IMG/VR virus record: IMGVR_UViG_649989948_000010
Location: 1 to 31,670 of that record
DNA length: 31,670 nt
From: a virus
Taxonomy: Duplodnaviria > Heunggongvirae > Uroviricota > Caudoviricetes
Strand: one strand, 5' to 3'
Numbering within the stretch: the first letter of the stretch is position 1; every line of letters begins with the position of its first letter. Made by a program: the position numbers and the translations under genes. Shown here one piece after another: positions 1,243 to 28,899 of this stretch. The notes beneath the pieces are model-generated. The model did no database searches and was not told the origin of the DNA. It saw nothing but the letters and a program-made list of their open reading frames with translations.

Positions 1243-1632
1243 CTACATCACGGGACAATCATCAAACTCGCCACTTCTTGCGTCGTTGATAATGTGAGTG
1301 ATCACACCAAACACGGCATTGCTGCCCGTGCATCCATCGTCATCCTTTGGCAATGCTTCCTTCTTACCGGTTCTTAAATCCTCCAGATGCTGACGTGGAT
1401 ACTTCCGGTATCTTTTTACGCGATATTCCCCATCCAGAGCGCATACAAGCAGAGAACCATCAACCGGGGTAAGTGAGGAATCGACCACCAGCAATGCACC
1501 CTGTAATATTCCCTCACGATGATGACTATCAGCTGCCCTCATGAAGTAGGTCGCTGAAGGATGTCTAATTATCTGCTGATCAAGAGAAATACGGCTCTCA
1601 GCATAATCCGCCGCAGGAGAAGGGAAGCCCAT
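1243..1632 (-). CDS. UmuD'-like S24 peptidase-family protein, naturally lacking the UmuD N-terminal arm
   Basis: 129 aa starting MGFPSPAADY, i.e. at the position of the UmuD Cys24-Gly25 cleavage site; Ser (ADSH) and Lys (VKRY) of the catalytic dyad retained; in-frame TGA directly upstream rules out a longer form; GAGG RBS. Confidence 0.7.
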   Translation of the reverse strand: MGFPSPAADYAESRISLDQQIIRHPSATYFMRAADSHHREGILQGALLVVDSSLTPVDGSLLVCALDGEYRVKRYRKYPRQHLEDLRTGKKEALPKDDDGCTGSNAVFGVITHIINDARSGEFDDCPVM

Positions 1633-1650: not shown

Positions 1651-1670
1651 TACTGTTTATCCATACAGTA
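1651..1670 (-). promoter_or_regulatory. LexA (SOS) box upstream of the UmuD'-like gene
   Basis: Minus-strand TACTGTATGGATAAACAGTA matches CTGT-N8-ACAG; centred about 28 nt upstream of the ATG and overlapping a candidate -10 TATACT. Confidence 0.6.
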
Positions 1671-2334: not shown

Positions 2335-3897
2335 ATGAAAATGACAAGTATTCAACAACGTGCAGAGCTTCATCGTCAAATCTGGCAAATTGCTAACGAT
2401 GTCAGGGGTTCGGTCGATGGATGGGATTTTAAGCAATACGTTCTGGGCGCACTTTTCTACCGTTTTATCAGCGAAAATTTTTCCAGCTATATTGAAGCCG
2501 GTGATGACAGTATCTGTTATGCGAAACTGGATGACAGCGTAATTACTGATGACATTAAAGACGATGCCATCAAAACCAAAGGTTACTTCATCTACCCAAG
2601 TCAGCTTTTCTGCAACGTAGCTGCGAAAGCAAATACCAATGACAGACTGAATGCAGATTTAAACAGCATCTTCGTTGCTATCGAAAGTTCTGCTTACGGT
2701 TACCCTTCAGAAGCTGACATCAAAGGTTTGTTTGCTGATTTCGATACCACCAGTAACCGCCTGGGTAACACCGTTAAGGATAAAAATGCCCGCCTGGCTG
2801 CGGTTCTGAAAGGGGTTGAAGGGTTAAAGCTTGGCGACTTTAACGAACATCAGATTGACCTGTTCGGCGATGCCTATGAGTTCCTGATTTCTAACTATGC
2901 CGCGAATGCTGGTAAGTCAGGCGGCGAGTTCTTTACACCGCAGCACGTCTCTAAGCTGATTGCACAACTGGCTATGCACGGGCAGACCCACGTTAACAAA
3001 ATCTACGACCCGGCCGCAGGTTCCGGTTCGCTGTTGTTGCAGGCGAAAAAGCAGTTTGATGACCATATCATCGAAGAAGGCTTTTTTGGTCAGGAGATCA
3101 ACCATACGACCTATAACCTGGCGCGTATGAACATGTTTTTGCACAACATCAACTACGACAAGTTTGATATCAAGTTGGGCAATACGCTGACTGAGCCGCA
3201 CTTCAGAGATGAAAAACCGTTTGATGCCATCGTTTCTAACCCGCCGTATTCGGTGAAATGGATTGGCAGCGATGACCCGACGCTGATTAACGATGAACGT
3301 TTTGCCCCGGCTGGCGTTCTGGCCCCCAAATCCAAAGCTGACTTTGCGTTTGTATTACATGCGCTGAACTATCTTTCGGCCAAAGGTCGCGCTGCGATTG
3401 TCTGCTTCCCAGGCATTTTTTACCGTGGCGGCGCGGAGCAGAAAATCCGTCAGTATCTGGTCGACAATAACTATGTCGAAACCGTGATTTCACTGGCACC
3501 GAATCTGTTCTTTGGCACCACTATTGCCGTCAATATTCTGGTGCTGTCTAAACATAAAACGGATACCAAAGTTCAGTTTATTGATGCCAGCGAACTGTTC
3601 AAAAAAGAGACTAACAACAACATTCTGACCGATGCTCATATCGAACAGATTATGCAGGTATTTGCCAGCAAGGAAGATGTTGCTCATCTGGCGAAATCTG
3701 TTGCGTTTGAGACTGTTGTCGCGAATGACTATAACCTGTCGGTGAGCAGCTATGTGGAAGCGAAAGATACTCGCGAAATTATCGATATCGCTGAGCTGAA
3801 TGCTGAGCTGAAAACCACGGTCAGCAAAATCGACCAGTTGCGTAAAGATATTGATGCGATTGTTGCTGAGATTGAAGGTAGCGAGGTACAGGCATGA
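2335..3897 (+). CDS. hsdM: Type I restriction-modification methyltransferase subunit HsdM (type IC-like)
   Basis: 520 aa; N6-adenine MTase motifs ([12 protein letters not shown]); N-terminus matches the EcoR124-family HsdM as I recall it; 4-bp ATGA overlap with hsdS. Confidence 0.93.
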
Positions 3898-5141
3898 GCG
3901 AGCTGAGTTATCTGGAAAAACTGCTGGATGGGGCTGAGGTTGAGTGGGTAGCATTAAATAAATTAGCAACTTTTTTAAAAGGGAAGTCTTTACCTAAAGA
4001 AAAAATAACTCCAGATGGCAATAGATATTGTATTCATTACGGTGAGCTTTTCACTCATTATGGTCCCATAATTGACAAAGTATGCTCAAAAACAAACCAA
4101 GCAATCAATGAGTCAATTCTATCTGAAAAAAATGATGTTCTAATGCCAACGTCAGACGTTACACCAAGAGGTTTGGCTACAGCTAGTTGCATTCAAGAAA
4201 GTGGCGTTATTTTAGGCGGCGATATTTTGATTATTAGATGCTCTGGTGTTGATGGTAGATATCTAAGTAATTTCATAATAAATAACAAAAAAAAGATATT
4301 GCAAATGGTTAAAGGTTCTACTGTTTATCATTTGTATGCTAAAGATATAGGTAAATTACTTATCCCCATCCCTTGCCCCAACAACCCGGAAAAGTCGCTG
4401 GCTATCCAGTCTGAAATCGTCAGGATTCTGGATAAATTTACTGCACTTACCGCTGAGCTTACCGCTGAGCTTAGCATGCGTAAAAAACAATACAACTACT
4501 ATCGCGACCAGTTGTTGAGTTTTAAAGAGGGTGAGGTTGAGTGGAAAGCTTTGGGGGAAATTGGTGAAGTTCGTATGTGTAAACGAATCCTAAAATCACA
4601 AACATCTTCTGAGGGAGAGATTCCATTTTATAAAATTGGGACATTTGGTAAGGAACCCGATTCCTATATATCTAGAAAACTATTTAATGAATTTAAAGAA
4701 AAATATAGTTATCCTAAAGTTGGCGAAGTATTGATTTCTGCCAGTGGGACCATCGGCAGGACTGTTATATTTGATGGTAGGGAATCATATTTCCAGGATA
4801 GCAATATTGTCTGGATTGAAAATAATGAAAAAATAGTTTTAAATAAATATTTATTCTATTTCTATAAAATAGCAAAATGGGGAATATCTGAAGGTGGAAC
4901 TATTAAAAGACTTTATAATGATAACTTAAGAAAACTTATGATACCAGTACCATTTCCTGATTCTCCTGAAAGATCGCTAGTTGAACAACAAAAAATAGTG
5001 AAATTACTGGATAAATTTGATGCTTTGACCAATTCCATCACCGAAGGTCTTCCGCGTGAAATCGAGTTGCGCCAGAAACAATACGAGTACTATCGTGATT
5101 TACTGTTCAGTTTTCCCAAACCTGAAACTATCAGTAACTAA
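3894..5141 (+). CDS. hsdS: Type I restriction-modification specificity subunit HsdS
   Basis: 415 aa; conserved central ([16 protein letters not shown]) and C-terminal ([37 protein letters not shown]) regions flanking two AT-rich variable domains. Confidence 0.9.
4448..4471 (+). repeat. Tandem 12-bp repeat (TACCGCTGAGCT x2) encoding TAEL-TAEL in the HsdS central spacer
   Basis: Direct tandem duplication read in the sequence; repeat number in this spacer sets recognition-site spacing in type IC systems. Confidence 0.85.
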
Positions 5142-5262
5142 TTGACCATTGCTACCGACCGGATCACCTTAACATCCGGTCTATATAGAGACTATTTTTT
5201 ACACGCCGGAAGTCGCCCTTAAAGCCCTTCCGGCCCTTGCCAGACGGCACAAAGGATGCGCT

Positions 5263-8200
5263 ATGACTCATCAGACACACACCATTGCTGAATCCAATAA
5301 CTTTATCGTTCTTGATAAGTACATCAAAGCCGAGCAAACAGGCGACAGCTACCAGAGCGAATCGGACCTGGAACGTGAACTGATTCAGGATCTGCGGAAT
5401 CAGGGCTATGAATTTATTTCCGTAAAATCTCAGTCGGCGATGCTGGCCAACGTTCGGGAACAGCTTCAGAACCTCAATGGTGTGGTGTTTAATGACAGCG
5501 AATGGCGGCGTTTCACGGAGCAGTATCTGGATAACCCGAGCGATGGCATCCTGGATAAGACCCGTAAAATCCATATCGACTATATTTGCGACTTTATTTT
5601 TGATGACGAGCGTCTTGAGAACATCTATTTGATAGATAAAAAGAATCTCATGCGCAACAAGGTGCAGATTATCCAGCAGTTTGAACAGACGGGTTCTCAT
5701 GCTAACCGTTATGACGTCACGATCCTGGTTAATGGCTTACCGCTGGTACAAATCGAACTGAAAAAGCGCGGCGTGGCGATTCGTGAGGCCTTTAACCAGA
5801 TACATCGTTACAGCAAAGAGAGTTTTAACAGCGAAAATTCTCTGTTTAAGTATCTGCAACTGTTTGTCATTTCCAACGGCACCGATACCCGTTACTTTGC
5901 CAACACGACAAAGCGCGATAAAAACAGTTTTGACTTCACCATGAATTGGGCGAAATCAGACAACACGCTGATTAAAGACCTCAAAGACTTTACCGCCACC
6001 TTTTTCCAGAAACATACCCTGCTTAATGTCTTAGTGAACTACAGCGTATTCGATGTTAGCCAAACGCTACTGGTGATGCGACCGTACCAGATTGCCGCCA
6101 CTGAGCGCATTCTGTGGAAAATTAAGAGTTCCTTTACAGCGAAGAACTGGTCAAAACCGGAAAGCGGTGGGTATATCTGGCACACTACCGGTTCAGGTAA
6201 AACCCTCACCAGCTTTAAAGCCGCGCGTCTGGCAACAGAGCTGGACTTTATTGATAAAGTCTTCTTCGTGGTCGACAGGAAAGACCTCGATTACCAGACC
6301 ATGAATGAATATAAGCGTTTTTCGCCAGACAGCGTCAACGGCTCGGAAAATACCGCAGGTCTTAAACGCAATCTGGATAAGGACGATAACAAAATTATCG
6401 TCACCACTATTCAGAAACTTAATAACCTGATGAAAGCAGAAAGCGACCTGCCTGTATACAATCAGCAAGTGGTGTTTATATTTGATGAATGTCACCGCAG
6501 CCAGTTTGGAGAAGCGCAGAAAAACCTGAAGAAGAAATTCAAACGCTATTATCAGTTTGGTTTTACCGGCACACCTATTTTCCCGGAAAACGCCTTAGGC
6601 TCAGAAACGACCGCCAGCGTATTTGGTCGTGAATTGCATTCGTATGTAATTACCGATGCGATTCGTGATGAAAAAGTGCTCAAATTCAAGGTGGACTACA
6701 ACGATGTGCGGCCACAGTTTAAATCTTTAGAGACAGAAACCGACGAGAAAAAACTGAGTGCGGCTGAAAATCAGCAGGCATTTCTTCATCCCATGCGTAT
6801 ACAGGAAATTACGCAATATATTCTGAATAACTTCCGCCAGAAGACCCACCGTACTTTCCCAGGTTCCAAAGGCTTTAATGCCATGCTGGCAGTGAGTAGC
6901 GTGGATGCCGCGAAAGCCTATTACGCGACGTTTAAACGGTTACAAGAGGAAGCAGCTAATAAATCGGCTACCTATAAACCGCTGCGTGTTGCAACAATCT
7001 TCTCCTTTGCCGCCAATGAAGAACAAAATGCCATTGGTGAAATTTCCGATGAAACTTTTGATACCAGCGCAATGGACAGCAGTGCTAAAGAGTTTCTTGA
7101 CGCTGCAATTCGTGAGTATAACAGCTATTTTAAAACTAACTTCAGCACCGACAGTAACGGTTTTCAGAACTACTATCGTGATTTAGCCCAACGGGTTAAA
7201 AATCAGGATATCGATCTGTTAATTGTCGTTGGGATGTTTTTAACCGGCTTCGACGCTCCAACATTGAACACGCTATTCGTCGATAAAAACTTGCGTTTTC
7301 ACGGCCTGATGCAGGCATTCTCCCGTACCAACCGCATTTATGACGCTACTAAAACCTTCGGTAACATCGTCACTTTTCGGGATCTGGAACGCTCAACCAT
7401 TGATGCCATAACGCTGTTTGGTGATAAAAATACTAAAAATGTGGTGTTAGAAAAGAGTTATGCTGAGTATATGGAAGGCTTTACAGATGCTGCCACTGGT
7501 GAAGCTAAACGCGGCTTTATGGCAGTAGTTTCAGAACTGGAACAACGGTTCCCTGACCCTGCCAGTATTGAAAGTGAAAAAGAGAAGAAAGACTTCGTAA
7601 AACTGTTTGGTGAATACCTGCGTGCCGAGAACATCCTGCAAAACTATGATGAATTTGCCACGCTGAAAGCCCTGCAACAAATCGATCTTAGCGATCCTGT
7701 TGCGGTAGAAAAATTCAAAGCAGAACATTATGTGGATGATGAAAAGTTCGCTGAATTGCAAACAATTCGTCTCCCTGCTGAACGCAAGATTCAGGATTAT
7801 CGTTCTGCCTATAACGATATTCGCGACTGGCAGCGCCGTGAGAAAGAAGCTGAGAAAAAAGAGAAATCAACCACTGACTGGGATGACGTAGTTTTTGAGG
7901 TCGATTTGCTGAAGTCTCAGGAAATAAACCTGGATTATATCCTTGGACTGATTTTCGAACACAACAGACAAAATAAAGGCAAGGGCGAAATGATCGAAGA
8001 GGTCAAACGCTTAATTCGTTCAAGCCTGGGGAACCGGGCGAAAGAGGGCCTGGTGGTCGATTTTATTCAGCAAACGAACCTGGATGATTTACCAGACAAA
8101 GCCAGTATCATTGAGGCATTCTTTACGTTTGCTCAACGCGAACAGCAACGTGAAGCAGAAGCATTGATAAAAGAAGAAAATCTCAATGAAGAGGCGGCGA

Positions 8201-8379
8201 AACGCTATATTCGCACGTCTTTAAAACGCGAATACGCCACCGAAAATGGCACAGAATTAAACGAGACATTACCAAAACTTAGTCCGTTAAACCCGCAATA
8301 TAAAACGAAAAAACAGACCGTTTTCCAGAAAATCGTCACGTTTATTGAAAAGTTCAAAGGAGTAGGTGGGCAGATATAG
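5263..8379 (+). CDS. hsdR: Type I restriction endonuclease subunit HsdR (type IC-like)
   Basis: 1038 aa; SF2 helicase motifs (TGSGKT, DECHRS), type I HsdR architecture; AGGA RBS. Confidence 0.93.
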
Positions 8380-8437: not shown

Positions 8438-8914
8438 TCAAACCATCGTAGGGATGTTTGTATCCACTTTGAACTCAGGTACACCAACGAACTCTTTAAC
8501 CTTCATCTGGTAGCCGGTTCTGTCAGTTTTGATGACTTCCTGTTTGCCCTCTATAAACTGCTCACGCCACTCGTCGCGACGGGAAGCTGGCATGATCAGC
8601 AAAACGTTAGTCATATCCGTGACCTTCCTCCAGTACTCGGCCCAAATATTCTGTTTCACCCATTCCAGATCGACTTTATCCAGCCAAGCTCGATTCAAAC
8701 GTGAGCGTTCTTCATCTGGTCGATGGTTCAGTTGCAGCAGGCGATTAATCATGTTGTGGCGTTCGTCGCCATAAACGAAGTCGTGAACCTGATACATGAA
8801 GGCGATCTCTTTCTCGCACTCGGCTACGATTTCGTGGATGACGTTCATTTCCTGACGATAATCGATAGCAGTGTTTGAGTTGGTATCGTCGATGATGGAA
8901 AGAGCTGTATTCAT
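8438..8914 (-). CDS. Hypothetical protein (158 aa), first gene after hsdR, convergent with it
   Basis: ORF with ATG start; contains an R-x5-H motif (RLLQLNH) that could be HEPN-like; no family recognised. Confidence 0.45.
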   Translation of the reverse strand: MNTALSIIDDTNSNTAIDYRQEMNVIHEIVAECEKEIAFMYQVHDFVYGDERHNMINRLLQLNHRPDEERSRLNRAWLDKVDLEWVKQNIWAEYWRKVTDMTNVLLIMPASRRDEWREQFIEGKQEVIKTDRTGYQMKVKEFVGVPEFKVDTNIPTMV

Positions 8915-9017
8915 AATTGCACCATTAAGAAAAGATTTGTTTAATAGTGCAATTATTTCAAAAATGAAAAGGTGCTAAATAGAAATTAACAGGCAATCCT
9001 TTAAATAAAGGTATTTG

Positions 9018-9634: not shown

Positions 9635-9916
9635 TTATCCCCAGTATGTGTATATGTAAGAACCAAGCCCCGTATATAAATTTGACCAACTAACCGTATT
9701 TCCATTAATAGTAACATTTGGAACAGGTAAATTGATGTAGTTGTCGTTGTTAAGAGGCATTAATGACCACACGGCATGTAGTGATTTACCCGGTGGCGGA
9801 TTAGAGTACGTCTTAGAGCCTGATGACGCCGTAAATCGATCAAGAAAAAAAATAGGTGTAAGGAAGCCAGTAACGTTAATTCCTTTATTGTTGTAAATCC
9901 CTGTACCGTATGCCAT
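9635..9916 (-). CDS. Hypothetical N/G/Y-rich protein (93 aa)
   Basis: ATG start with AAGGGTGA RBS; abuts the downstream ORF. Confidence 0.4.
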   Translation of the reverse strand: MAYGTGIYNNKGINVTGFLTPIFFLDRFTASSGSKTYSNPPPGKSLHAVWSLMPLNNDNYINLPVPNVTINGNTVSWSNLYTGLGSYIYTYWG

Positions 9917-9970
9917 TTTTCACCCTTGTTTTTATCAACACAATATGGCCGATCATGCGGCCATATCAGA

Positions 9971-10540
9971 TCAATTAGAGCTTTGAAAGACTTTGTGTGG
10001 TTGTGTTGCGAGGTTATGTCGATGGCTTAACTCACGCATCATGTCTTCAAGGCGACTCTTTGTGTCGTCGAGTTGGTCGGCCATTGCTCCCAAAAGCTGA
10101 CGAACGGCCATCGGATCATCGCTGTTTAGTGATGGCATTTTATAACCCGCCTGAGAAGACATAAGATTGAACGCAGACATCAACATCGTTAGAGAGGATT
10201 TAAGCCCAGCAATTTCACGATCTTTGCTGGCAATAATCGCCTCACTCTTGTTAGTGTCATCAGTTCGTTGAGTCTCGCTCACCATATCCAAAGTCGCCTG
10301 CAACTTATCAGCGCGCTCTTTTTCAGCAAGATAATGAACACCGAAATGATGTGCTAAAGCTACAACCTGAGTTGGCTCTTCAAAGGTGGACTCAAAATTA
10401 AGTGCTGTAACCACTCTCTCAAATATGGAAACGTCTTCTATTCCTCGAAGAATGGCTAACATTTTGACCAGTTCATTAGCATCCATTTCTTCGAATAAGG
10501 CGTTTTGTTCATCAGCTATCGCTTTGCATTTCTTGCACAT
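9971..10540 (-). CDS. Hypothetical protein (189 aa), predicted helical
   Basis: ATG start preceded by the AGGAAAAACAC leader shared with the TerB-like and nrdB genes; palindrome AAACAAGTTGTTT 25 nt upstream. Confidence 0.5.
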   Translation of the reverse strand: MCKKCKAIADEQNALFEEMDANELVKMLAILRGIEDVSIFERVVTALNFESTFEEPTQVVALAHHFGVHYLAEKERADKLQATLDMVSETQRTDDTNKSEAIIASKDREIAGLKSSLTMLMSAFNLMSSQAGYKMPSLNSDDPMAVRQLLGAMADQLDDTKSRLEDMMRELSHRHNLATQPHKVFQSSN

Positions 10541-10558
10541 GTGTTTTTCCTAATGCTT

Positions 10559-10571
10559 AAACAAGTTGTTT
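10559..10571 (-). promoter_or_regulatory. Palindromic motif AAACAA-G-TTGTTT, 25 nt upstream of the 189-aa gene
   Basis: Perfect 6-bp inverted repeat with 1-nt spacer; same motif recurs at 11288-11300 and 22293-22305. Confidence 0.4.
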
Positions 10572-10655
10572 TCTTATTGGCTTTATTGTGATGTGGCATA
10601 AAAGGGGAGCAAGCTAAACGTAAAGGTGCAAACTCTCTATTTCGGTCAACGAAAC

Positions 10656-10677
10656 ACAAGGGCCATTTGGCCCTTGT
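10656..10677 (-). terminator. Stem-loop immediately after the 52-aa ORF
   Basis: 9-bp inverted repeat ACAAGGGCC/GGCCCTTGT with 4-nt loop, followed on the minus strand by GTTTCGTT. Confidence 0.4.
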
Positions 10678-10679
10678 CA

Positions 10680-10838
10680 TTAACACGTTGCTTTACGGAC
10701 TAGCGGATAAGCGAAGTAGATCGCCAGACCAATGAGGACGCCATCAGAAATGACAGACATCATCTTTCCCGTAAAATCCACCAACACCGCTATCACCAGA
10801 AGAGCAATGACGGTCACAAGCCGGAATCTCTCAAGCAT
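10680..10838 (-). CDS. Small hydrophobic protein (52 aa, two predicted TM segments), translationally coupled to the TerB-like gene
   Basis: Hand-translated: MLERFRLVTVIALLVIAVLVDFTGKMMSVISDGVLIGLAIYFAYPLVRKATC; its ATG overlaps the TerB-like TAA (TAATG); absent from the ORF track (under 60 aa). Confidence 0.35.
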   Translation of the reverse strand: MLERFRLVTVIALLVIAVLVDFTGKMMSVISDGVLIGLAIYFAYPLVRKATC

Positions 10839-11263
10839 TAGAGATAAGCATCCAGTGACAACTGAAGCGCCTGGGCGATCTTTTTCAGCGCCTGCTCTTC
10901 TGGTTCATCAATGCCGTCCTGGTCGGCAATATCAAGGCACAGACACAGTACATCTACTGCATCATCAGTCCCGGCCACATCCGCCAGCTCACGTAAAGCC
11001 TGGGCATTAGCACGGCGCGGTGAGGCTTCGTATTGAGCGCGGATATTGGCGCTCATCTGGGCAATCTCACCAGCAAAAGGAGAAAATGCAGGCAGAGCTG
11101 CAATTGTTTTCTCAAGAATGGAAATTTCTTTTGCATCGCATGTACCGTTGGCATAGGAGATCATGTACCCGCCCCACACGGTGGCTTCAACCGCATCACG
11201 GTTCTCCATTTTTTTGACTTCGATAACAGCTTTACGAGTTTTCTTTTTGAAGAAACCTAACAT
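10838..11263 (-). CDS. TerB-like domain protein (141 aa)
   Basis: Pattern resembles tellurite-resistance TerB (N-terminal MxxFF; acidic C-terminal LCLCLDIADQDGIDEPEEQALKKIAQALQLS). Confidence 0.55.
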   Translation of the reverse strand: MLGFFKKKTRKAVIEVKKMENRDAVEATVWGGYMISYANGTCDAKEISILEKTIAALPAFSPFAGEIAQMSANIRAQYEASPRRANAQALRELADVAGTDDAVDVLCLCLDIADQDGIDEPEEQALKKIAQALQLSLDAYL

Positions 11264-11287
11264 GTGTTTTCCTTTTGCTATTTGTCA

Positions 11288-11300
11288 AAACAAATTGTTT
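11288..11300 (-). promoter_or_regulatory. Palindromic motif AAACAA-A-TTGTTT, 31 nt upstream of the TerB-like gene
   Basis: Second copy of the shared palindrome, same position relative to the start codon and GTGTTTTCC leader. Confidence 0.4.
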
Positions 11301-11356
11301 TCTGGTTACATAAATTGCTTACGCAAAGACGGTCAATGCATATGCACTAACAACCG

Positions 11357-11545
11357 TCAGAAATAACCAAGTACCGAACCGACTGGAAAAATAAAAATCC
11401 CAACTACACGAGCCAAGGTCATGCCAGCCTGAAACTGGAGATCACCTGAGCAAACGAGTTTTATAATGTTGGATACCCAACCGGCGGCCATGAGAGCCAG
11501 AATTGCCAGCCAAATTTTCCCAAAGTGATTTGAAAGCCAGTTCAT
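11357..11545 (-). CDS. Small membrane protein (62 aa, two predicted TM helices)
   Basis: Hydrophobic segments IWLAILALMAAGWV and LARVVGIFIFPVGSVLGYF; ATG overlaps the TGA of the upstream 83-aa ORF (ATGA). Confidence 0.45.
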   Translation of the reverse strand: MNWLSNHFGKIWLAILALMAAGWVSNIIKLVCSGDLQFQAGMTLARVVGIFIFPVGSVLGYF

Positions 11546-11793
11546 ACAACCACCTTAGTCACAACATGATCCTGAGTAACTGGATGAACTTGAGGTATCG
11601 CATCCACCGTCATCCCATCCAGAGTGACAGGACGCTCTACTGGAGTGGTGGTAATTGTCGTCGACGGAGGTGTGGTGATGGATGAACCCGGCATCAAAAG
11701 GCTCTGGCCGGCTGGAACGGCTACCGTCGCCAGTGAAACTATAATGAGAACGTAGGCCATTGGTTTCAGCCTCTTTCTTTGAAAATTTTCCAT
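11542..11793 (-). CDS. Small bitopic membrane protein (83 aa) with Pro/Thr-rich C-terminal region
   Basis: AAGGA RBS 7 nt before ATG; basic N-terminus then a hydrophobic anchor (MAYVLIIVSLATVAVPAG); coupled to the 62-aa gene. Confidence 0.4.
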   Translation of the reverse strand: MENFQRKRLKPMAYVLIIVSLATVAVPAGQSLLMPGSSITTPPSTTITTTPVERPVTLDGMTVDAIPQVHPVTQDHVVTKVVV

Positions 11794-12049
11794 TCGAACT
11801 GTCCTTGTTGTTTTTCTCCTTCACTAAAGGCCGTGTACTTTTCGCTTCGCGTGAAGAACCAGAGGCAACAATCGCCCCCACGTTCGCAACAACTGACGCT
11901 TGATTATCTAAACGTTCATTCAGCAACCGAACGGTAGTCTCTAGTTCATCAAGACGTGACATAACACGACCGCTAAACAATTCGGCCAAAATTTGACGTA
12001 AAGAACGAGGACGTTTAGTTGCAGAAGTGAAATAGGTTTGACGTGCCAT
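11555..12049 (-). CDS. Hypothetical protein (164 aa ORF; only the first ~85 aa look protein-like)
   Basis: Good GGAG RBS and ATG at 12049; downstream half overlaps the 83-aa ORF in another frame and is low-complexity S/H/C-rich; true 3' end uncertain. Confidence 0.3.
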   Translation of the reverse strand: MARQTYFTSATKRPRSLRQILAELFSGRVMSRLDELETTVRLLNERLDNQASVVANVGAIVASGSSREAKSTRPLVKEKNNKDSSNGKFSKKEAETNGLRSHYSFTGDGSRSSRPEPFDAGFIHHHTSVDDNYHHSSRASCHSGWDDGGCDTSSSSSYSGSCCD

Positions 12050-12078
12050 GTGGACTCCATCCAGTGTCAGAAAGAGTT

Positions 12079-12100
12079 GCGGCTGGCGATCGCCAGCCGC
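12079..12100. terminator. Perfect 22-bp palindrome GCGGCTGGCGATCGCCAGCCGC between RNase H and the next gene
   Basis: Perfect inverted repeat; flanked by T/C-rich sequence on both strands. Confidence 0.4.
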
Positions 12101-12788: not shown

Positions 12789-13373
12789 ATAAACTCCTGA
12801 ATCAAGCGCCGCGCCGATTTTTTTTCCTCGCGCGTGCGCACACGCGTGCGTGTTAATAATTATTAAAATAAACAAATTACTTCCCAGAACAGGTTTTTAT
12901 AAACCTGAACTGAACGAACGAAGTGAGTGAAGTTCACCTCGAACGAAGTGAGAGGTTGTCTTTTCAGGTAATACTCTCCCAGGGAGGTGAGTACAAAATT
13001 TCCTCACCAACCTGGTCGTTTCATAACCTGAAAAGTTATGACCTAAGTCTACTGCCAGCTTAGGCTTGGGAAGTTATGGATGACAGCACCCCAGAACCGA
13101 GATCTTCCCACACTTTATGAAGGGGAGTACTGGATTCAACCTCTCGAAACACCCCAGACTCGACAATCATAAAGTGACCCTTGTCTCTGCTCACTTTGGT
13201 TCCCCCTTCCCCAACCCCTAAACGGTGCCGGTTCTACGCTGGTAGTGAGCTTTTTTAAACCTGACGCCAGTGACGCTTACCCCCACCCATCAGGTCGAGC
13301 CTCCAATCTACGACTGGAAACTATCAGATCTTAGCACTTACAATTCACTTTATGAATAGTTTGTACTTATCTA

Positions 13374-14384: not shown

Positions 14385-14461
14385 CTTCTTTCTCGATAGG
14401 TAAGTATATACCTATTTTTGCATTTGATTTTATGTCTGGCAATCAAATAAAACGCGCCAGA

Positions 14462-21118: not shown

Positions 21119-22261
21119 TTACAGGTCTGCAAACTGGCTTAGAGAAGCCTTATCCACGGTAGAATCGATCTGACCTACCAGATATGTGCTTTGCTCTGCC
21201 TCTTGTGGTGCAATTTGCAGTGTGTCGGTTAACAACCACTTGTTCATCCAGACCAGCGGATCAGTGGTAACTTCTGGAAATAAAGCCTTCAGGCCAAGAC
21301 GATTCATAGCCAGATTGGTGCGGTATTTTACATAGGTTTTGAGAATATCCGCGTTTAAACCAATCATCGAACCGTCTTTGAAGAGATAGTCTGCCCAGTT
21401 CATTTCTTGTTCGGCGACTGATTTCATGGTGTCGTAAATGACGTTTTCTTCATCAGCAGCAATCTCTTTCCACAATAAACCTTCGCGACCGGTACGCATG
21501 AAGCGGATCATGCGTTCAGTTCCTTCGCAATGCAGAGCTTCATCACGGGCAATAAAGCGCATAATTTTGGTGTTACCCTCAAGCAACTTCCGTTCACCAA
21601 AGGCAAACGTACATGCAAAACTTACGTAGAAACGGATCGCCTCAAGCGCATTAATGGACACCAACGTGCGGAAAAGCTGACGATGCAAAGGGTATGGCTC
21701 CCAGCCATATTCATTTACGTACAGACGCTCAAATTCCTTCTCACCTAACGACTGGCGCTCGCAGGTCATCCCATAAAGCCTGTCATATTCAGCAGAGATA
21801 CTGATCGCTCGGTTGATGATTTCTTCATCCGTAACAATACCGTCAAAAACAATGCTCGGATCGTCCACCATGCCACGAATAATGTGGGTGTAGCTGCGGC
21901 TATGGATAGTCTCAGAGAAAGACCATGTTTCAACCCACGTTTCCAGTTCAGGAATAGAGATAAGCGGCAGCAGCGTTGCATTTGGGCTACGTCCCTGAAC
22001 TGAATCGAGTAACGTTTGATAACGGAGATTGCTCAGAAAAATGTGACGTTCGTGGTCCCGCAGCTTCGTGTTGAAGTCGATACGATCGCTCGAAATATCA
22101 ACTTCTTCCGGCCGCCAGAAGAAAGACAATTGACGTTCAATCAACTTTTCAAAATCACGGTATTTTTGCTGATCGTAACGTGCCACGTTGACAGATTGTC
22201 CGAGGAACATAGGCTCTTTGGTTGCATCATTAGCACCCAAACGGAACGTTGAATATGACAT
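21119..22261 (-). CDS. nrdB: Ribonucleotide reductase class Ia small subunit
   Basis: 380 aa; collinear with E. coli NrdB ([60 protein letters not shown]); divergent, phage-type. Confidence 0.92.
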
Positions 22262-22292
22262 GTGTTTTTCCTTTTTCTTTTTTGGTGCGTTT

Positions 22293-22305
22293 AAACAAGT
22301 TGTTA
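22293..22305 (-). promoter_or_regulatory. Palindrome-like motif AAACAAGTTGTTA upstream of nrdB
   Basis: Third copy (one mismatch) about 38 nt upstream of the nrdB ATG, with extra half-site at 22313-22324 and the same GTGTTTTTCC leader. Confidence 0.35.
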
Positions 22306-22340: not shown

Positions 22341-22359
22341 GAAGGTGGGGATATCCCCC
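22341..22359 (-). terminator. Stem-loop between nrdA and nrdB (possible attenuator)
   Basis: GGTGGGG/CCCCACC stem with ATATC loop, directly after the nrdA stop and followed on the minus strand by a T-rich tract. Confidence 0.35.
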
Positions 22360-22367
22360 ACCATATG

Positions 22368-25335: not shown

Positions 25336-26079
25336 TTACCATGTTCCCCATATAGGGTTTTCCAATAATCTCGCCTCCAACGAATTGGCTACTATTGCCG
25401 TTTGCAACGTTGGTTGGGGATAGTTTGCAAAGTCTGAATACTCATTTTCCTGCGTGACACGTTTATCTGCGGCATGTTTAACACCACTTGCTATGAAATG
25501 ACGCATGATGCCCAACAGCCTCCGACTGTCTGCACTATCGTTTGCTAAAACATGAGGGAGCTGAAGTTCGATTTCTACCATTTCTCCATACTTCCCAACA
25601 AACTGTAGTTTGTCCGCACTGTACTTTTTATCCCTCCTTTGGATAAGGAAACCAGTAAAAGCATCACCTGGCGATGCCAAACTATCTACCCGCTTATTGG
25701 CAAGTCGAATAAGGTTCGTGAAAGCCATACAGTGATGCGCACCCATTCCCCCAAAGAACCCTTCGCTATTAATGTTAAGATCTTCAGTTTCATGGGATGC
25801 AATAAACCCAGGCCCGACGTTGGGAAGATATCCCCCCTCAACAAAAGGATTAATCAGGATCGGCGCAATACATCCAGGTGGTAGTGATTTCAAACTTTGC
25901 ATCAATGGCGTCTCGGATATTAGACCAAGCAACGCGGCGAATTGTACTCCGTCAATATTGTTGCTGCCCCACAGAATACGTGGAGCCGCACCATTGGAAG
26001 TATGCCCATTGATCAGTTTTATCGACTGCATCACTGCAAATACCTGCAAAAACTGCGAGCGGCTTAATTTAAACGACAT
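25336..26079 (-). CDS. Hypothetical protein (247 aa)
   Basis: AGAGGGG RBS; lies between the truncated SbcC-like gene and the RuvC-like gene; no family recognised. Confidence 0.5.
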   Translation of the reverse strand: MSFKLSRSQFLQVFAVMQSIKLINGHTSNGAAPRILWGSNNIDGVQFAALLGLISETPLMQSLKSLPPGCIAPILINPFVEGGYLPNVGPGFIASHETEDLNINSEGFFGGMGAHHCMAFTNLIRLANKRVDSLASPGDAFTGFLIQRRDKKYSADKLQFVGKYGEMVEIELQLPHVLANDSADSRRLLGIMRHFIASGVKHAADKRVTQENEYSDFANYPQPTLQTAIVANSLEARLLENPIWGTW

Positions 26080-26396
26080 AGCTGCGCCCCTCTTTAACTT
26101 CCAGCGTAATAGTTTCCCGGAACCATGACTTCATCTCTTTATGGGAGATAATCAGCACAGTACCTCGCTCGCGAGCTTTGGACTCCAGAATACCCATGAG
26201 GCGTTCAAGACCGGCTGTATCGAGTGCATCGTCAATTTCGTCGCCGATAAACAAATCGATGTTTTTACTCGCCCGGTTACTAACCAGATCCTGCAATGCC
26301 AAAGAACACGCAATGCGAACCTTCCGCTTCTCACCACCAGAGAGGGTCTGGAACGACTTACTTGAACCTTTCTTCTGCACACTAATGTTGAATTTG
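26069..26396 (-). pseudogene. 3' fragment of an SbcC/Rad50-like (ABC-type) ATPase gene, truncated by IS66 insertion
   Basis: Encodes only the C-terminal signature LSGGEKRK, Walker B/D-loop LFIGDEIDDALD and H-loop ISHK; reading frame runs into the IS66 left end at 26397. Confidence 0.55.
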
Positions 26397-26482: not shown

Positions 26483-26908
26483 ATGGAATTACAGGACTGG
26501 CGAAAAGAACCTCGTAAAAACTATTCGAATGAATTCAAACTTCGTATGGTGGAACTGGCATCACAACCTGGAGCTTGTGTTGCACAGATTGCACGTGAAA
26601 ATGGCGTCAATGATAATGTTATTTTCAAATGGCTCAGGCTCTGGCAGAACGAAGGGCGTGTTTCACGGCGTCTTCCGGTAACGACCTCTTCTGACACTGG
26701 CGTTGAATTATTACCTGTAGAAATAACGCCGGATGAGCAGAAAGAACCTGTGGCGGCCATTGCGCCGTCTTTATCCACTTCCACTCAGACCAGAGTCAGT
26801 GCCAGTTCCTGCAAGGTGGAATTCCGTCACGGTAACATGACGCTGGAAAATCCATCGCCAGAGCTGCTCACAGTGTTGATCCGTGAACTGACCGGGAGGG
26901 GAAGATGA
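26483..26908 (+). CDS. IS66-family accessory protein (orfA)
   Basis: 141 aa HTH-like protein; 4-bp overlap with orfB. Confidence 0.85.
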   Translation: MELQDWRKEPRKNYSNEFKLRMVELASQPGACVAQIARENGVNDNVIFKWLRLWQNEGRVSRRLPVTTSSDTGVELLPVEITPDEQKEPVAAIAPSLSTSTQTRVSASSCKVEFRHGNMTLENPSPELLTVLIRELTGRGR

Positions 26909-27255
26909 TCTCACTCCCATCAGGTACCCGTATCTGGCTCGTTGCCGGCGTTACCGATATGCGTAAATCCTTCAACGGACTGGGAGAACAGGTACAACAT
27001 GTGCTGAATGATAATCCCTTCTCCGGTCACCTGTTTATCTTCCGTGGCCGACGGGGTGACACCGTCAAAATTCTTTGGGCTGATGCTGATGGTCTGTGCC
27101 TGTTCACCAAACGCCTGGAGGAAGGCCAGTTTATCTGGCCTGCGGTACGTGACGGCAAGGTATCCATTACCCGCTCGCAACTGGCAATGCTCCTCGATAA
27201 GCTGGACTGGCGTCAGCCAAAAACATCCAGCCGTAACTCACTGACAATGTTGTAA
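26905..27255 (+). CDS. IS66-family accessory protein (orfB)
   Basis: 116 aa; conserved IS66 orfB pattern (LWADADGLCLFTKRLEEGQF). Confidence 0.85.
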   Translation: MISLPSGTRIWLVAGVTDMRKSFNGLGEQVQHVLNDNPFSGHLFIFRGRRGDTVKILWADADGLCLFTKRLEEGQFIWPAVRDGKVSITRSQLAMLLDKLDWRQPKTSSRNSLTML

Positions 27256-27285
27256 AAAACTCCTGACCGCATTATAAAAACGGTC

Positions 27286-28899
27286 ATGAGTCAGAAATAC
27301 CTCATTCGCATCGCAGAGCTGGAAAGGTTGCTCTCTGAGCAGGCTGAAGCCCTCCGTCAGAAAGACCAGCAACTGAGTCTGGTTGAAGAGACGGAAGCCT
27401 TCCTGCGCTCTGCACTGACACGTGCCGAAGAAAAGATCGAAGAAGATGAACGGGAAATAGAACATCTGCGGGCTCAGATAGAAAAACTGCGCCGGATGCT
27501 GTTCGGTACCCGTTCTGAAAAACTGCGTCGTGAAGTTGAACTGGCTGAGGCTCTGCTGAAACAACGTGAACAGGACAGCGATCGTTACAGTGGGCGGGAA
27601 GACGATCCTCAGGTTCCCCGCCAGTTGCGACAGTCGCGCCATCGTCGTCCGTTACCGGCACACCTTCCCCGTGAAATACACCGCCTGGAGCCAGAAGAAA
27701 GCTGTTGCCCGGAGTGTGGCGGTAAGCTGGATTATCTGGGGGAAGTCAGCGCTGAACAGCTGGAACTGGTGAGCAGTGCCCTGAAAGTGATCCGCACAGA
27801 ACGGGTAAAAAAAGCCTGTACAAAATGTGACTGTATTGTTGAAGCACCGGCGCCGTCTCGCCCGATAGAGCGTGGTATCGCGGGCCCCGGATTACTTGCC
27901 CGCGTGTTAACGGGAAAATACTGCGAACATCTGCCACTGTATCGTCAGAGTGAAATCTTTGCCCGCCAGGGTGTCGAACTGAGCCGGGCCTTACTCTCCA
28001 ACTGGGTTGACGCGTGCTGCCAGTTAATGACACCGGTGAATGATGCCCTGTACCGTTATGTAATGAACACCCGCAAGATTCACACTGATGACACACCGGT
28101 AAAGGTACTGGCACCGGGTCAGAAAAAGGCGAAAACAGGGCGTATCTGGACGTATGTCCGGGATGATCGCAATGTGGGTTCGTCATCTCCTCCAGCGGTC
28201 TGGTTCGCGTACTCGCCGAACCGGCAGGGGAAACACCCGGAGCAACACCTCCGCCCCTTCCGGGGTATCCTGCAGGCGGATGCGTTCACAGGTTACGACA
28301 GGTTGTTCAGTGCAGAACGTGAAGGTGGTGCACTGACAGAAGTTGCGTGCTGGGCCCATGCCCGGCGAAAAATCCACGATGTATACATCAGCAGCAAAAG
28401 TGCGACGGCAGAAGAAGCACTGAAGCGAATCAGTGAACTGTACGCCATCGAGGATGAAATACGGGGATTACCGGAGTCAGAGCGTCTTGCCGTCAGGCAG
28501 CAGCGAAGCAAAGTGTTACTGACGTCGCTGCATGAATGGATGGTGGAGAAGAATGGTACGCTGTCGAAAAAATCCAGACTGGGCGAAGCGTTCAGCTATG
28601 TACTGAATCAGTGGGATGCCCTCTGTTATTACAGTGATGACGGTCTGGCGGAGGCGGATAATAATGCTGCGGAAAGAGCGCTTCGTGCAGTCTGTCTCGG
28701 AAAGAAAAACTTTATGTTCTTTGGCAGCGATCACGGCGGCGAGCGTGGAGCACTGTTGTACGGGCTGATCGGCACCTGCCGTCTGAACGGTATCGATCCG
28801 GAAGCGTATCTGCGCCATATCCTGAGCGTACTGCCGGAATGGCCTTCCAACCGAGTTGATGAACTCCTGCCATGGAACGTAGTACTCACCAATAAATAA
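27286..28899 (+). CDS. IS66-family transposase (orfC)
   Basis: 537 aa; coiled-coil N-terminus, CxxC zinc-finger-like region, conserved catalytic core. Confidence 0.85.
   Translation: MSQKYLIRIAELERLLSEQAEALRQKDQQLSLVEETEAFLRSALTRAEEKIEEDEREIEHLRAQIEKLRRMLFGTRSEKLRREVELAEALLKQREQDSDRYSGREDDPQVPRQLRQSRHRRPLPAHLPREIHRLEPEESCCPECGGKLDYLGEVSAEQLELVSSALKVIRTERVKKACTKCDCIVEAPAPSRPIERGIAGPGLLARVLTGKYCEHLPLYRQSEIFARQGVELSRALLSNWVDACCQLMTPVNDALYRYVMNTRKIHTDDTPVKVLAPGQKKAKTGRIWTYVRDDRNVGSSSPPAVWFAYSPNRQGKHPEQHLRPFRGILQADAFTGYDRLFSAEREGGALTEVACWAHARRKIHDVYISSKSATAEEALKRISELYAIEDEIRGLPESERLAVRQQRSKVLLTSLHEWMVEKNGTLSKKSRLGEAFSYVLNQWDALCYYSDDGLAEADNNAAERALRAVCLGKKNFMFFGSDHGGERGALLYGLIGTCRLNGIDPEAYLRHILSVLPEWPSNRVDELLPWNVVLTNK

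What the first reader, a model, noticed from the sequence alone, without database searches (positions are those of the whole stretch)
10559..11300. Shared palindromic motif AAACAA-N-TTGTTT plus conserved leader upstream of three genes
The same 13-bp palindrome sits 25-38 nt upstream of the start codons of the 189-aa gene (10559-10571), the TerB-like gene (11288-11300) and nrdB (22293-22305, one mismatch). Each is followed by a near-identical leader (GTGTTTTTCC on the plus strand, giving an AGGAAAAACAC-like RBS region). A 1-nt spacer cannot form an RNA hairpin, so this is more likely a DNA operator for a dimeric regulator or a promoter element. It suggests these genes are co-regulated.
Basis: seen in the sequence. 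Interest (0 to 1): 0.55.

Follow-up and report, generated by a model that had tools for sequence, protein, structure and literature searches.

The report
Genome-wide palindromic operator of a phage-plasmid
The 13-base palindrome AAACAANTTGTTT is a real, strongly conserved control site that sits at fixed positions beside dozens of promoters in SSU5/pHCM2-like phage-plasmids of enterobacteria, most likely the docking site of a still unidentified repressor that keeps many of the element's genes silent.

Summary
AAACAANTTGTTT occurs three times in the window (0.23 expected), each time 19-44 nt upstream of a minus-strand start codon and followed by the same ribosome-binding leader.

The window is an SSU5/pHCM2-like phage-plasmid of E. 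coli, 97% identical to phages PhiR41_1 and Cyrano. The three sites belong to a much larger set:
- Cyrano has 18 sites (about 0.8 expected), nearly all intergenic.
- SSU5-like contigs carry about 0.37 sites per kb.

The motif stays unchanged upstream of orthologues that are only 59-62% identical, while the flanking DNA diverges.

It takes two rigid positions around an extended -10 sigma-70 promoter (TGnGATAAT): about +14, and about -38. Paired sites are 51 bp apart. The AGA flank always faces the -10 element, a mirror arrangement that makes sense on DNA but not on RNA. The RNA does not fold stably. In published LF82 lysogen transcriptomes, most genes behind the motif are silent.

Best reading: a multi-site operator of a dimeric DNA-binding repressor, functionally like P1 C1 operators, RK2 KorB sites or mycobacteriophage stoperators. 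The binding protein is not identified. No paper in the searchable library contains the motif. I rate it a new member of a known kind.

The parts
10559..10571 (-). Operator copy 1, perfect. On the gene strand it reads AGA-AAACAACTTGTTT, 19-31 nt upstream of the 189-aa gene. It has the canonical 'class A' position, centred about +14 of the predicted promoter.
   Evidence: The motif is unchanged in 27 distinct orthologous upstream regions, down to 59% protein identity.
10585..10612 (-). Predicted sigma-70 promoter of the 189-aa gene: -35 TTGCTC (10612-10607), a 16-nt spacer, and -10 CACAAT (10590-10585). The -10 ends 13 nt before the operator.
   Evidence: TTGnnn-16-CACAAT is kept in divergent orthologues, and the spacing equals the family-wide mode. 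The strict consensus scan did not call it. No transcription-start data exist.
11288..11300 (-). Operator copy 2, perfect (AGA-AAACAATTTGTTT-TGA), 25-37 nt upstream of tciA/TerB. A possible promoter, TTGACC (11336-11331) -17/18- TTATGT/TATGTA, would put the site over the transcription start.
   Evidence: It is conserved upstream of the tciA orthologue in Klebsiella pJN2-26 and in many IMG/VR relatives, while the flanks differ.
22293..22305 (-). Operator copy 3, one mismatch (AGA-TAACAACTTGTTT), 32-44 nt upstream of nrdB. A half-copy, CTTGTTTAAAC, lies 24 nt further upstream.
   Evidence: The same site is present in Cyrano. Klebsiella has AATCAAATTGTTT at the same place.
8930..8942 (-). Decayed operator (AAACAAATCTTTT, 2 mismatches), 9 nt after TGaAATAAT and upstream of the truncated DUF4942/methyltransferase gene 8438-8914.
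   Evidence: The intact orthologue in Klebsiella has a perfect class A site (position 19162).
12870..12882 (-). Weak copy (AAGTAATTTGTTT on the gene strand, 2 mismatches), about 80 nt upstream of the RNase H gene.
   Evidence: The same copy is present in Cyrano at L003 28969. Its function is doubtful.
10538..10551 (-). Shared leader AGGAAAAACAC-ATG: the Shine-Dalgarno sequence, an A-rich spacer and the start codon of the 189-aa gene.
   Evidence: It is conserved in orthologues.
11261..11273 (-). Shared leader AGGAAAACAC-ATG of tciA.
22259..22271 (-). Shared leader GGAAAAACAC-ATG of nrdB.
10656..10677 (-). Terminator-like hairpin after tciB, which separates the tciAB unit from the promoter and operator of the 189-aa gene.
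22344..22362 (-). Hairpin after nrdA, just upstream of the nrdB control region. Its T-tract is weak.
9971..10540 (-). Regulated gene: a 189-aa acidic protein of unknown function (PHROG 5508).
10680..11263 (-). Regulated unit tciA (TerB family, 10838-11263) and tciB (10680-10838).
21119..22261 (-). Regulated gene nrdB (ribonucleotide reductase beta subunit).

Best explanation
AAACAANTTGTTT (extended form AGA-AAACAANTTGTTT) is the operator of a genome-wide regulon in SSU5/pHCM2-like phage-plasmids.

Mechanism proposed: a symmetric, probably dimeric, DNA-binding protein recognises the two 6-bp arms. The sites lie in three kinds of place: just downstream of the start of host-type extended -10 promoters (centre about +14), over the start, or over the -35 region (centre about -38). 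Where both positions are occupied they are 51 bp apart, which is about five helical turns and puts them on the same face of the DNA, so two bound dimers could cooperate or loop the DNA. Binding blocks RNA polymerase and keeps these otherwise competent promoters off in the plasmid-prophage state.

In the window it controls the 189-aa gene, tciAB and nrdB.

What is shown: the enrichment, the conservation, the rigid geometry, the mirror symmetry, and the silence of the downstream genes in lysogens.

What is inferred: that a protein binds, that the effect is repression, and where transcription starts. The regulator is not identified.
For: **Enrichment**
- 3 sites in the window against 0.23 expected.
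- 18 sites in Cyrano against about 0.8 expected.
- 870 sites in 2.3 Mb of related loci, or 0.37 per kb.

**Phylogenetic footprint**
- The motif is unchanged upstream of orthologues of the 189-aa gene at 59-62% protein identity, while the flanks diverge.
- It is kept at all three window genes in Klebsiella pJN2-26.

**Geometry**
- 62 non-redundant 'class A' sites: the -10 hexamer ends exactly 14 nt before the motif start in 49 of them.
- 48 'class B' sites: the hexamer starts 19 nt after the motif in 38 of them.
- Starting instead from TGn plus a -10-like hexamer, without using the motif, a motif begins 13 or 14 nt downstream in 121 and 32 contexts. Other offsets give 0-6, apart from 33 at offset 20.
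- Paired sites are 51 bp apart (42 distinct pairs) or 25 bp apart (16 pairs).

**DNA rather than RNA**
- The central base is free (0.06 bits).
- The AGA/TCT flank faces the -10 element in both classes.
- Class B sites follow strong hairpins (21 of 48, against 7 of 62 for class A) and lie upstream of the promoter.
- There is no stable RNA fold.
- The mismatches seen in the site lists look one-sided rather than compensated. This was judged by eye, not counted.

**Direction of the effect**
- The promoters match TGnGATAAT.
- Yet in the LF82(Cyrano) transcriptomes, genes behind the motif read 5.7-25 against a background of 9.8. parA is the exception at 50 (PMC9928086, supplementary table).

**Specificity**
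- The double-motif pattern hits almost only SSU5-like contigs of about 50-110 kb in IMG/VR.
Against: - No binding protein is identified.
- The Xre repressor CYRAN_45 has a different palindrome, GGTAAGTGCTTACC, in its own control region.
- The ParB_N proteins are silent in lysogens.
- The ribbon-helix-helix-like CYRAN_117 is expressed, but its predicted DNA-reading strand differs in relatives that keep the same motif.
- Nearly all phage genes are silent in lysogens, so the silence is also compatible with a missing activator.
- parA carries a perfect site yet is expressed at 5 times background.
- The promoters at the three window sites are weak by the consensus scan, and transcription starts are not mapped.
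- In class A the promoter-side arm is better conserved than the other arm, which is not what a fully symmetric site predicts.
- The rigid spacing could partly reflect common descent of duplicated promoter modules.
Confidence: 0.6

Rival explanations
1. RNA-level operator. The motif acts in the 5' untranslated leader, as AAGAAAACAA-N-UUGUUU just before the Shine-Dalgarno sequence. It would be bound by the element's FljA-family protein, which blocks translation or destabilises the mRNA, as Salmonella FljA does on the fliC leader.
For: - Class A sites lie between the predicted start and the Shine-Dalgarno sequence, a median of 17 nt before the ATG.
- The element encodes a strong FljA homologue (PF03614, E = 1e-80). 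The homologue is kept at 74-99% identity in relatives and is also present in phage-plasmids of Klebsiella. Klebsiella is non-motile (own knowledge).
- FljA is cited as preventing fliC mRNA translation (PMC2652032).
- fliC leaders of Salmonella and Citrobacter hold CAAGTTGT, the core of the motif. FljA-insensitive fljB leaders lack it.
- The gene is moderately expressed in lysogens.
Against: - Class B sites lie upstream of the promoter and after hairpins.
- The flank is mirrored (TCT after the motif in class B, AGA before it in class A), which is DNA logic and not RNA logic.
- An exact reverse complement with a free centre is not needed for a single-stranded RNA site.
- The fliC match covers only 7 specified bases and was noticed after the fact.
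- No motif lies at the fljA-like gene itself.
Confidence: 0.15
2. Activator site. The palindrome recruits a phage-encoded activator of middle or late transcription, like the 9-bp inverted repeat bound by Lpa at the 11 late promoters of P1. The genes are silent in lysogens because the activator is absent.
For: - A site centred at -38 could serve a class II-type activator.
- terS, the first late gene, carries two sites.
- All downstream genes are off in lysogens.
- P1 uses such an arrangement (PMC10695390).
Against: - The most frequent position, about +14, lies downstream of the -10 element, where activators do not act.
- At helicase, cobT and tciA only 19-24 nt separate the motif from the ATG, leaving no room for a downstream promoter.
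- The promoters already have a near-consensus extended -10.
- parA, which is needed in the plasmid state, also carries the motif.
Confidence: 0.12
3. Host factor or intrinsic DNA property. A conserved enterobacterial DNA-binding protein reads the site, or curvature of the A4-N5-T4 tract (an UP-element-like effect) does the work.
For: - The motif is identical in elements of Escherichia, Klebsiella, Salmonella and Enterobacter, whose own proteins have diverged to 55-60%.
- The class B position overlaps the region where the proximal UP subsite lies (own knowledge).
Against: - No E. coli regulator known to me has this consensus. The KdgR, IHF, PhoP, CusR and LacI-family boxes differ in spacing or in key bases; this is from memory and was not tested.
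- The C and G at arm position 4 are as conserved as the A and T runs, which argues for base-specific reading.
- Enrichment in the host chromosome could not be tested.
Confidence: 0.08
4. No function of its own: the motif is only a passenger in an intergenic promoter module that has been duplicated many times.
For: Many sites share about 70 nt of similar module sequence.
Against: - At tciA, nrdB, helicase, cobT and parA the surrounding sequence is unrelated, yet the 13-mer is kept.
- It survives in orthologous regions whose flanks have been randomised.
- The centre base varies freely while the arms do not.
Confidence: 0.04

Closest known systems
Phage P1 C1 repressor and its dispersed operators (also a phage-plasmid)
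   Same: One regulator has many operators scattered over a roughly 100-kb plasmid-prophage, each at the promoter of a separate transcription unit. P1 likewise has very many small transcription units.
   Different: P1 operators are 17-bp asymmetric sites (own knowledge); here the site is a 13-bp palindrome. No C1 homologue is annotated. Here the first late gene and parA also carry the site.
RK2/RP4 global regulators KorB (13-bp palindrome TTTAGCSGCTAAA) and KorA
   Same: The operator has the same 6-1-6 palindrome format and occurs at a dozen or more promoters across the replicon, covering replication, partition and accessory genes. The class I KorB position just upstream of the -35 matches class B here (about -38). 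These comparisons are from own knowledge.
   Different: The sequence is unrelated. The two ParB_N proteins of the element are not expressed in lysogens. There is no evidence of action at a distance.
Mycobacteriophage L5 gp71 'stoperators'
   Same: About 30 repressor sites of 13 bp lie in short intergenic regions throughout the genome, many of them inside transcribed DNA, and silence the prophage (own knowledge).
   Different: Stoperators are asymmetric and depend on orientation. Here the site is palindromic and tied to fixed promoter positions.
P1 Lpa late-promoter inverted repeat
   Same: A conserved short inverted repeat is attached to many promoters of a phage-plasmid.
   Different: The Lpa site replaces the -35 and is centred near -22 (own knowledge). 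Here the centres are at about +14 and -38, and the effect is probably negative.
Salmonella FljA and the fliC leader operator
   Same: A homologue of FljA is encoded by the element. The target lies between the transcription start and the Shine-Dalgarno sequence. The fliC leader shares CAAGTTGT with the motif.
   Different: FljA is reported to act on mRNA and its homologue models as tandem Sm-like barrels. The motif here also occurs in untranscribed promoter DNA, with mirror symmetry.
Start-associated sequences (SAS/ESAS) of cluster K mycobacteriophages
   Same: A 13-bp motif is repeated just upstream of many start codons, with an associated inverted repeat, and its function is still unknown (own knowledge).
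   Different: SAS includes the ribosome-binding site itself. Here the palindrome is separate from the Shine-Dalgarno sequence and is positioned relative to the promoter.

Membership tests
Multi-operator phage or plasmid repressor regulon (generic kind) | The same short site recurs at many promoters of one replicon, far above chance | tested here: met
   3 against 0.23 expected in the window. 18 against about 0.8 expected in Cyrano. 0.37 per kb in relatives.
Multi-operator phage or plasmid repressor regulon (generic kind) | The sites overlap or abut core promoter elements at fixed positions | tested here: met
   The motif starts 13-14 nt after the -10 hexamer or ends 19 nt before it. The promoters are predicted, not mapped.
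Multi-operator phage or plasmid repressor regulon (generic kind) | A cognate DNA-binding protein is encoded and binds the site | not testable with these tools
   The candidates were examined and none is convincing.
Multi-operator phage or plasmid repressor regulon (generic kind) | The target genes are repressed in the lysogen | tested here: inconclusive
   Motif-bearing genes are at background in the LF82 transcriptomes, but so are most phage genes.
P1 C1 operator | 17-bp asymmetric consensus ATTGCTCTAATAAATTT (own knowledge) | tested here: not met
   The site here is a 13-bp palindrome of unrelated sequence.
RK2 KorB operator OB | 13-bp palindrome TTTAGCSGCTAAA bound by a ParB-family protein | tested here: not met
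   The format is the same but the sequence differs. ParB_N proteins are present but are at background in lysogens.
P1 Lpa-type late promoter | An inverted repeat centred near -22 in place of a -35, combined with a -10 hexamer | tested here: not met
   The centres are at about +14 and -38 relative to the -10 element.
RNA hairpin or intrinsic terminator | A stable stem-loop, with compensatory changes between the arms | tested here: not met
   The minimum free energy is 0 to -1.8 kcal/mol and the leader z-scores are about 0. The variants seen are one-sided by eye; compensatory changes were not counted.
LexA (SOS) box | CTGT-N8-ACAG | tested here: not met
   The motif lacks it. A true LexA box lies elsewhere in the window, at 1651-1670.
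NrdR box (for the nrdB site) | A 16-bp palindrome of the acaCwAtATaTwGtgt type, usually in tandem, upstream of nrd genes (own knowledge) | tested here: not met
   The sequence at 22293-22305 is TAACAACTTGTTT, and the same site serves unrelated genes.
FljA-fliC operator | An FljA-family protein is encoded | tested here: met
   CYRAN_114 matches PF03614 with E = 1e-80. It lies outside the window.
FljA-fliC operator | The target sequence resembles the fliC leader operator and lies between the transcription start and the Shine-Dalgarno sequence | tested here: inconclusive
   Only CAAGTTGT is shared. Class B sites do not fit this location.

The most novel reading that the evidence does not exclude
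The reader of the motif is the element's FljA-family protein, a tandem Sm/Hfq-like protein. FljA would then be in origin a global regulator of SSU5-like phage-plasmids, acting at dozens of leaders or promoters. The Salmonella flagellar phase-variation repressor would be a domesticated offshoot whose fliC operator (CAAGTTGT) is a relic of this motif.
Probability: 0.15. Interest if true: 0.8.

Novelty: new member of a known kind. Interest (0 to 1): 0.58.

Why it matters
SSU5/pHCM2/pLF82-like phage-plasmids are common in clinical Escherichia, Salmonella, Klebsiella and Enterobacter, and they carry resistance and defence cargo. This window itself holds a type I restriction-modification cassette. 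Almost nothing is published on how they control their genes.

A single 13-bp site that marks most of their transcription units, with a defined promoter-operator module, gives three things:
- a direct handle for finding the master regulator, by pull-down, DAP-seq or reporter assays;
- a way to predict regulon membership from sequence alone in any new element;
- a diagnostic signature of the family.

It also provides compact, probably repressible promoter parts.

Tried and rejected
**Regulator candidates examined**
- **CYRAN_45 (Xre repressor).** Its own control region holds a different palindrome and no copy of the motif.
- **CYRAN_119/120 (ParB_N proteins), CYRAN_123 and CYRAN_37.** All are at background in lysogens.
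- **CYRAN_43.** It is by far the most expressed lysogenic gene, but it is acidic and has no family or PDB match.
- **CYRAN_117.** It looks ribbon-helix-helix-like by eye and is expressed. A motif-like stretch inside its first codons turned out to be coding-driven and is absent in relatives, and its putative DNA-reading strand is not conserved.
- **The 189-aa protein.** It is acidic and helical, with a single CxxC.

**Other readings rejected**
- RNA hairpin.
- A promoter downstream of the motif: there is no room.
- Independent function of the left arm AGAAAACAA alone: 17 of 25 copies carry the right arm with at most 2 mismatches.

**Literature**
- Eight keyword searches and one search for the four sequence variants found no description of the motif.
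- Two relevant papers could not be opened: the Yamamoto and Kutsukake FljA paper, and a 2026 preprint on a phage-plasmid promoter.

**Technical limit**
- Loci fetched by accession (L002-L004) were not visible to scripts, so the whole-genome counts for Cyrano come from the pattern tool only.
Full report
**1. What the window is**

Megablast of 9900-12100 gives 96-97% identity over the full length to Escherichia phages PhiR41_1, CMS-2020a and Cyrano, and about 77% over the tciA part to Klebsiella phage-plasmids. Cyrano is pLF82, the SSU5-like phage-plasmid of E. coli LF82 (PMC9928086). The genes around the finding are on the minus strand:
- a 189-aa protein of unknown function (9971-10540);
- tciA/TerB and tciB (10680-11263);
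- nrdB (21119-22261).

**2. The observation**

AAACAANTTGTTT with at most one mismatch occurs exactly three times, at the stated coordinates. Shuffles give 0.23 expected, and none of 100 reached 3.

On the gene strand the sites read:
- ataAGA-AAACAACTTGTTT-aag
- ccAGA-AAACAATTTGTTT-tga
- taAGA-TAACAACTTGTTT-aaa

Their centres lie 25, 31 and 38 nt before the ATG. All three are followed by (A)GGAAAA(A)CAC-ATG. At three mismatches the enrichment disappears, so only near-perfect copies are meaningful.

**3. It is a genome-wide signal, not a three-gene one**

Cyrano (108 kb) has 18 copies with at most one mismatch, against about 0.8 expected. They lie upstream of:
- terS (two copies);
- parA, the replicative helicase, cobT and CYRAN_58;
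- nrdB, tciA and the 189-aa gene;
- an eae-like gene;
- a run of small genes, CYRAN_101-111.

In 2.3 Mb of related loci the density is 0.37 per kb, roughly 50 times the window's chance level. A search of 2.9 million viral contigs for two copies 8-38 nt apart returned 44 stretches. Almost all were on contigs of 50-110 kb of this family.

**4. Conservation**

The 189-aa protein has relatives down to 59% identity in 54 IMG/VR loci. In their 27 distinct upstream regions most positions are scrambled, but four blocks survive:
- a TTGnnn hexamer;
- CACAAT (or GATAAT), 16 nt later;
- AAAACAAnTTGTTTAA, 13 nt after that;
- the AAGGAAAAACAC-ATG leader.

Klebsiella pJN2-26 keeps the motif at the orthologues of all three window genes, although the flanks differ.

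**5. Anatomy**

From 142 non-redundant sites, two classes emerge.

*Class A (62 sites).* The consensus is ..CCTTTT..ttG.GATAAT-aAcaCCaa.aAGA-AAACAAnTTGTTT-Aa. The last T of the -10 hexamer lies exactly 14 nt before the first base of the motif in 49 cases.

*Class B (48 sites).* The consensus is hairpin..CCTT-AAACAAnTTGTTT-TCTgCCTTtTcT..TTG.GATAAT. The hexamer starts 19 nt after the motif in 38 cases.

Taking a start about 7 nt after the -10 element, the centres fall near +14 and -38.

A test that does not use the motif to pick sites gives the same answer. Among 2325 TGn-plus-hexamer contexts, a motif with at most 2 mismatches starts 13 nt downstream in 121 and 14 nt downstream in 32. Most other offsets give 0-6. 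One further offset, 20, also gives 33, and I did not examine that group.

Adjacent copies are 51 bp apart in 42 distinct sequences and 25 bp apart in 16, with hardly anything else.

About a third of class B sites have a class A partner. Class B sites are preceded by strong hairpins (21 of 48, against 7 of 62).

The position weights show near-invariant arms, a free centre (0.06 bits) and a somewhat weaker promoter-distal arm.

In the window:
- the 189-aa site is canonical class A (TTGCTC-16-CACAAT-13-motif);
- the tciA and nrdB sites lie closer to, or over, weaker candidate promoters;
- all three control regions follow a hairpin or a gene end.

**6. DNA or RNA?**

Four points favour DNA.
- The 13-mer does not fold, and the leaders fold no better than shuffles.
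- Variants such as AAATAA, TTATTT, TTGTTA and CATGTT appear one-sided rather than compensated. This is from reading the site lists, not from a count.
- Class B copies lie outside the predicted transcript.
- Most tellingly, the conserved flank is mirrored. It is AGA before the motif when the -10 is upstream, and TCT after it when the -10 is downstream. The two sites therefore form a large dyad around the promoter, and an RNA-binding factor would not see that symmetry.

**7. Direction of the effect**

The promoters are good extended -10 promoters. Even so, in the LF82 lysogen transcriptomes the genes behind the motif sit at background:
- terS 7, cobT 8, CYRAN_58 6, nrdB 13, tciA 7;
- the 189-aa gene 7, CYRAN_101 7;
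- the median of the element is 9.8.

parA is the exception at 50. A site at +14 cannot activate. At helicase and cobT only 19 nt separate the motif from the ATG, so no promoter can lie downstream. I therefore read the site as a repressor operator, possibly working in cooperating pairs.

**8. Who binds?**

This is unresolved.
- **CYRAN_45**, the annotated lysogeny repressor (Xre-type, expressed), has GGTAAGTGCTTACC in its own divergent control region. Related GGTA-N6-TACC palindromes stand before the adenine methylase gene. That looks like a separate regulon.
- **The ParB_N proteins**, which would fit a KorB analogy, are not expressed in lysogens.
- **CYRAN_117** looks like a ribbon-helix-helix protein by eye and is expressed, but its N-terminal strand differs in relatives that keep the identical motif.
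- **The FljA homologue CYRAN_114** is the best-conserved regulator (74-99% identity). It is present even in Klebsiella elements and is moderately expressed. It models as two Sm/Hfq-like barrels, which points to RNA or single-stranded nucleic acid rather than duplex DNA. Salmonella and Citrobacter fliC leaders contain CAAGTTGT, the motif core, and fljB leaders do not. That is a lead, not a test.
- **A conserved host protein** would explain why the motif is identical across genera. I know of no matching consensus and could not scan host chromosomes.

**9. Comparison with known systems**

Functionally this is the arrangement known from P1 C1 operators, L5 stoperators and the RK2 KorA/KorB regulon: one short site at many promoters of a large extrachromosomal replicon. 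It is not a member of any of those families by sequence or by identified protein (see the membership table).

It is not a LexA box, an NrdR box, a P1 Lpa late-promoter repeat or a terminator. None of the four sequence variants occurs in any paper of the searchable library, and the keyword searches on SSU5 and pHCM2 regulation found nothing on it.

**10. Verdict**

The element is a real, conserved, promoter-coupled palindromic operator. It defines a regulon of about 20 transcription units in a widespread family of phage-plasmids. The kind is known; the motif, the module and the family-wide regulon appear to be undescribed.

My estimates:
- about 0.95 that the motif is a functional cis-element;
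- about 0.75 that it works on DNA;
- about 0.6 for the full repressor-operator model.

Noticed in passing
window 2335-8379 (+): A complete type I restriction-modification cassette (hsdM 520 aa, hsdS 415 aa, hsdR 1038 aa) is carried as cargo. It is absent at this position in phage Cyrano, which has ea22/eae-like genes there instead.
   Followed up: partly
window 8438-8914 (-) and 8930-8942: Only the first 158 aa of the DUF4942/methyltransferase gene remain next to the R-M cassette. Its operator has decayed: it has 2 mismatches and lies 9 nt instead of 13 nt after TGaAATAAT.
   Followed up: partly
window 26483-28899 (+), with 26069-26380 (-): An IS66-family element (tnpA, tnpB and tnpC by Pfam) appears to be inserted into the sbcC-like nuclease gene, leaving a 103-aa remnant ORF.
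   Followed up: partly
window 1651-1670: A consensus LexA box, TACTGTATGGATAAACAGTA, lies upstream of the S24 peptidase (UmuD/HumD-like) gene 1243-1632 (-). Its Cyrano orthologue is well expressed in lysogens.
   Followed up: no
window 14398-14413; Cyrano L002 42606-42619; Klebsiella L005 23761-23774: There is a second palindrome family, GGTA-N6-TACC. AGGTATATACTTACCT lies before the adenine methylase gene, and GGTAAGTGCTTACC lies in the Xre repressor/cro-like control region. It is probably the operator of the annotated lysogeny repressor and forms a separate regulon.
   Followed up: partly
[not shown]
   Followed up: partly
Cyrano L002 57-134, outside the window: Upstream of terS there are two operators 25 bp apart, followed by the terminator-like hairpin AGAGCGC-N6-GCGCTCT plus GTGTGTTTT, just before the start codon. 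This suggests that late-operon entry is controlled by both repression and termination.
   Followed up: no
Repeated promoter module, e.g. window 10599-10604 (CCTTTT on the gene strand): A conserved CCTTTT box lies at about -28..-23, in the spacer of the repeated promoters. Its role is unknown, and it loosely recalls the position of the T4 MotA box.
   Followed up: no
Cyrano L002 40268-40822 (-), outside the window: CYRAN_43, an acidic 184-aa protein with no known family, is expressed about 700 times above the element's background in lysogens. Its function is unknown.
   Followed up: partly
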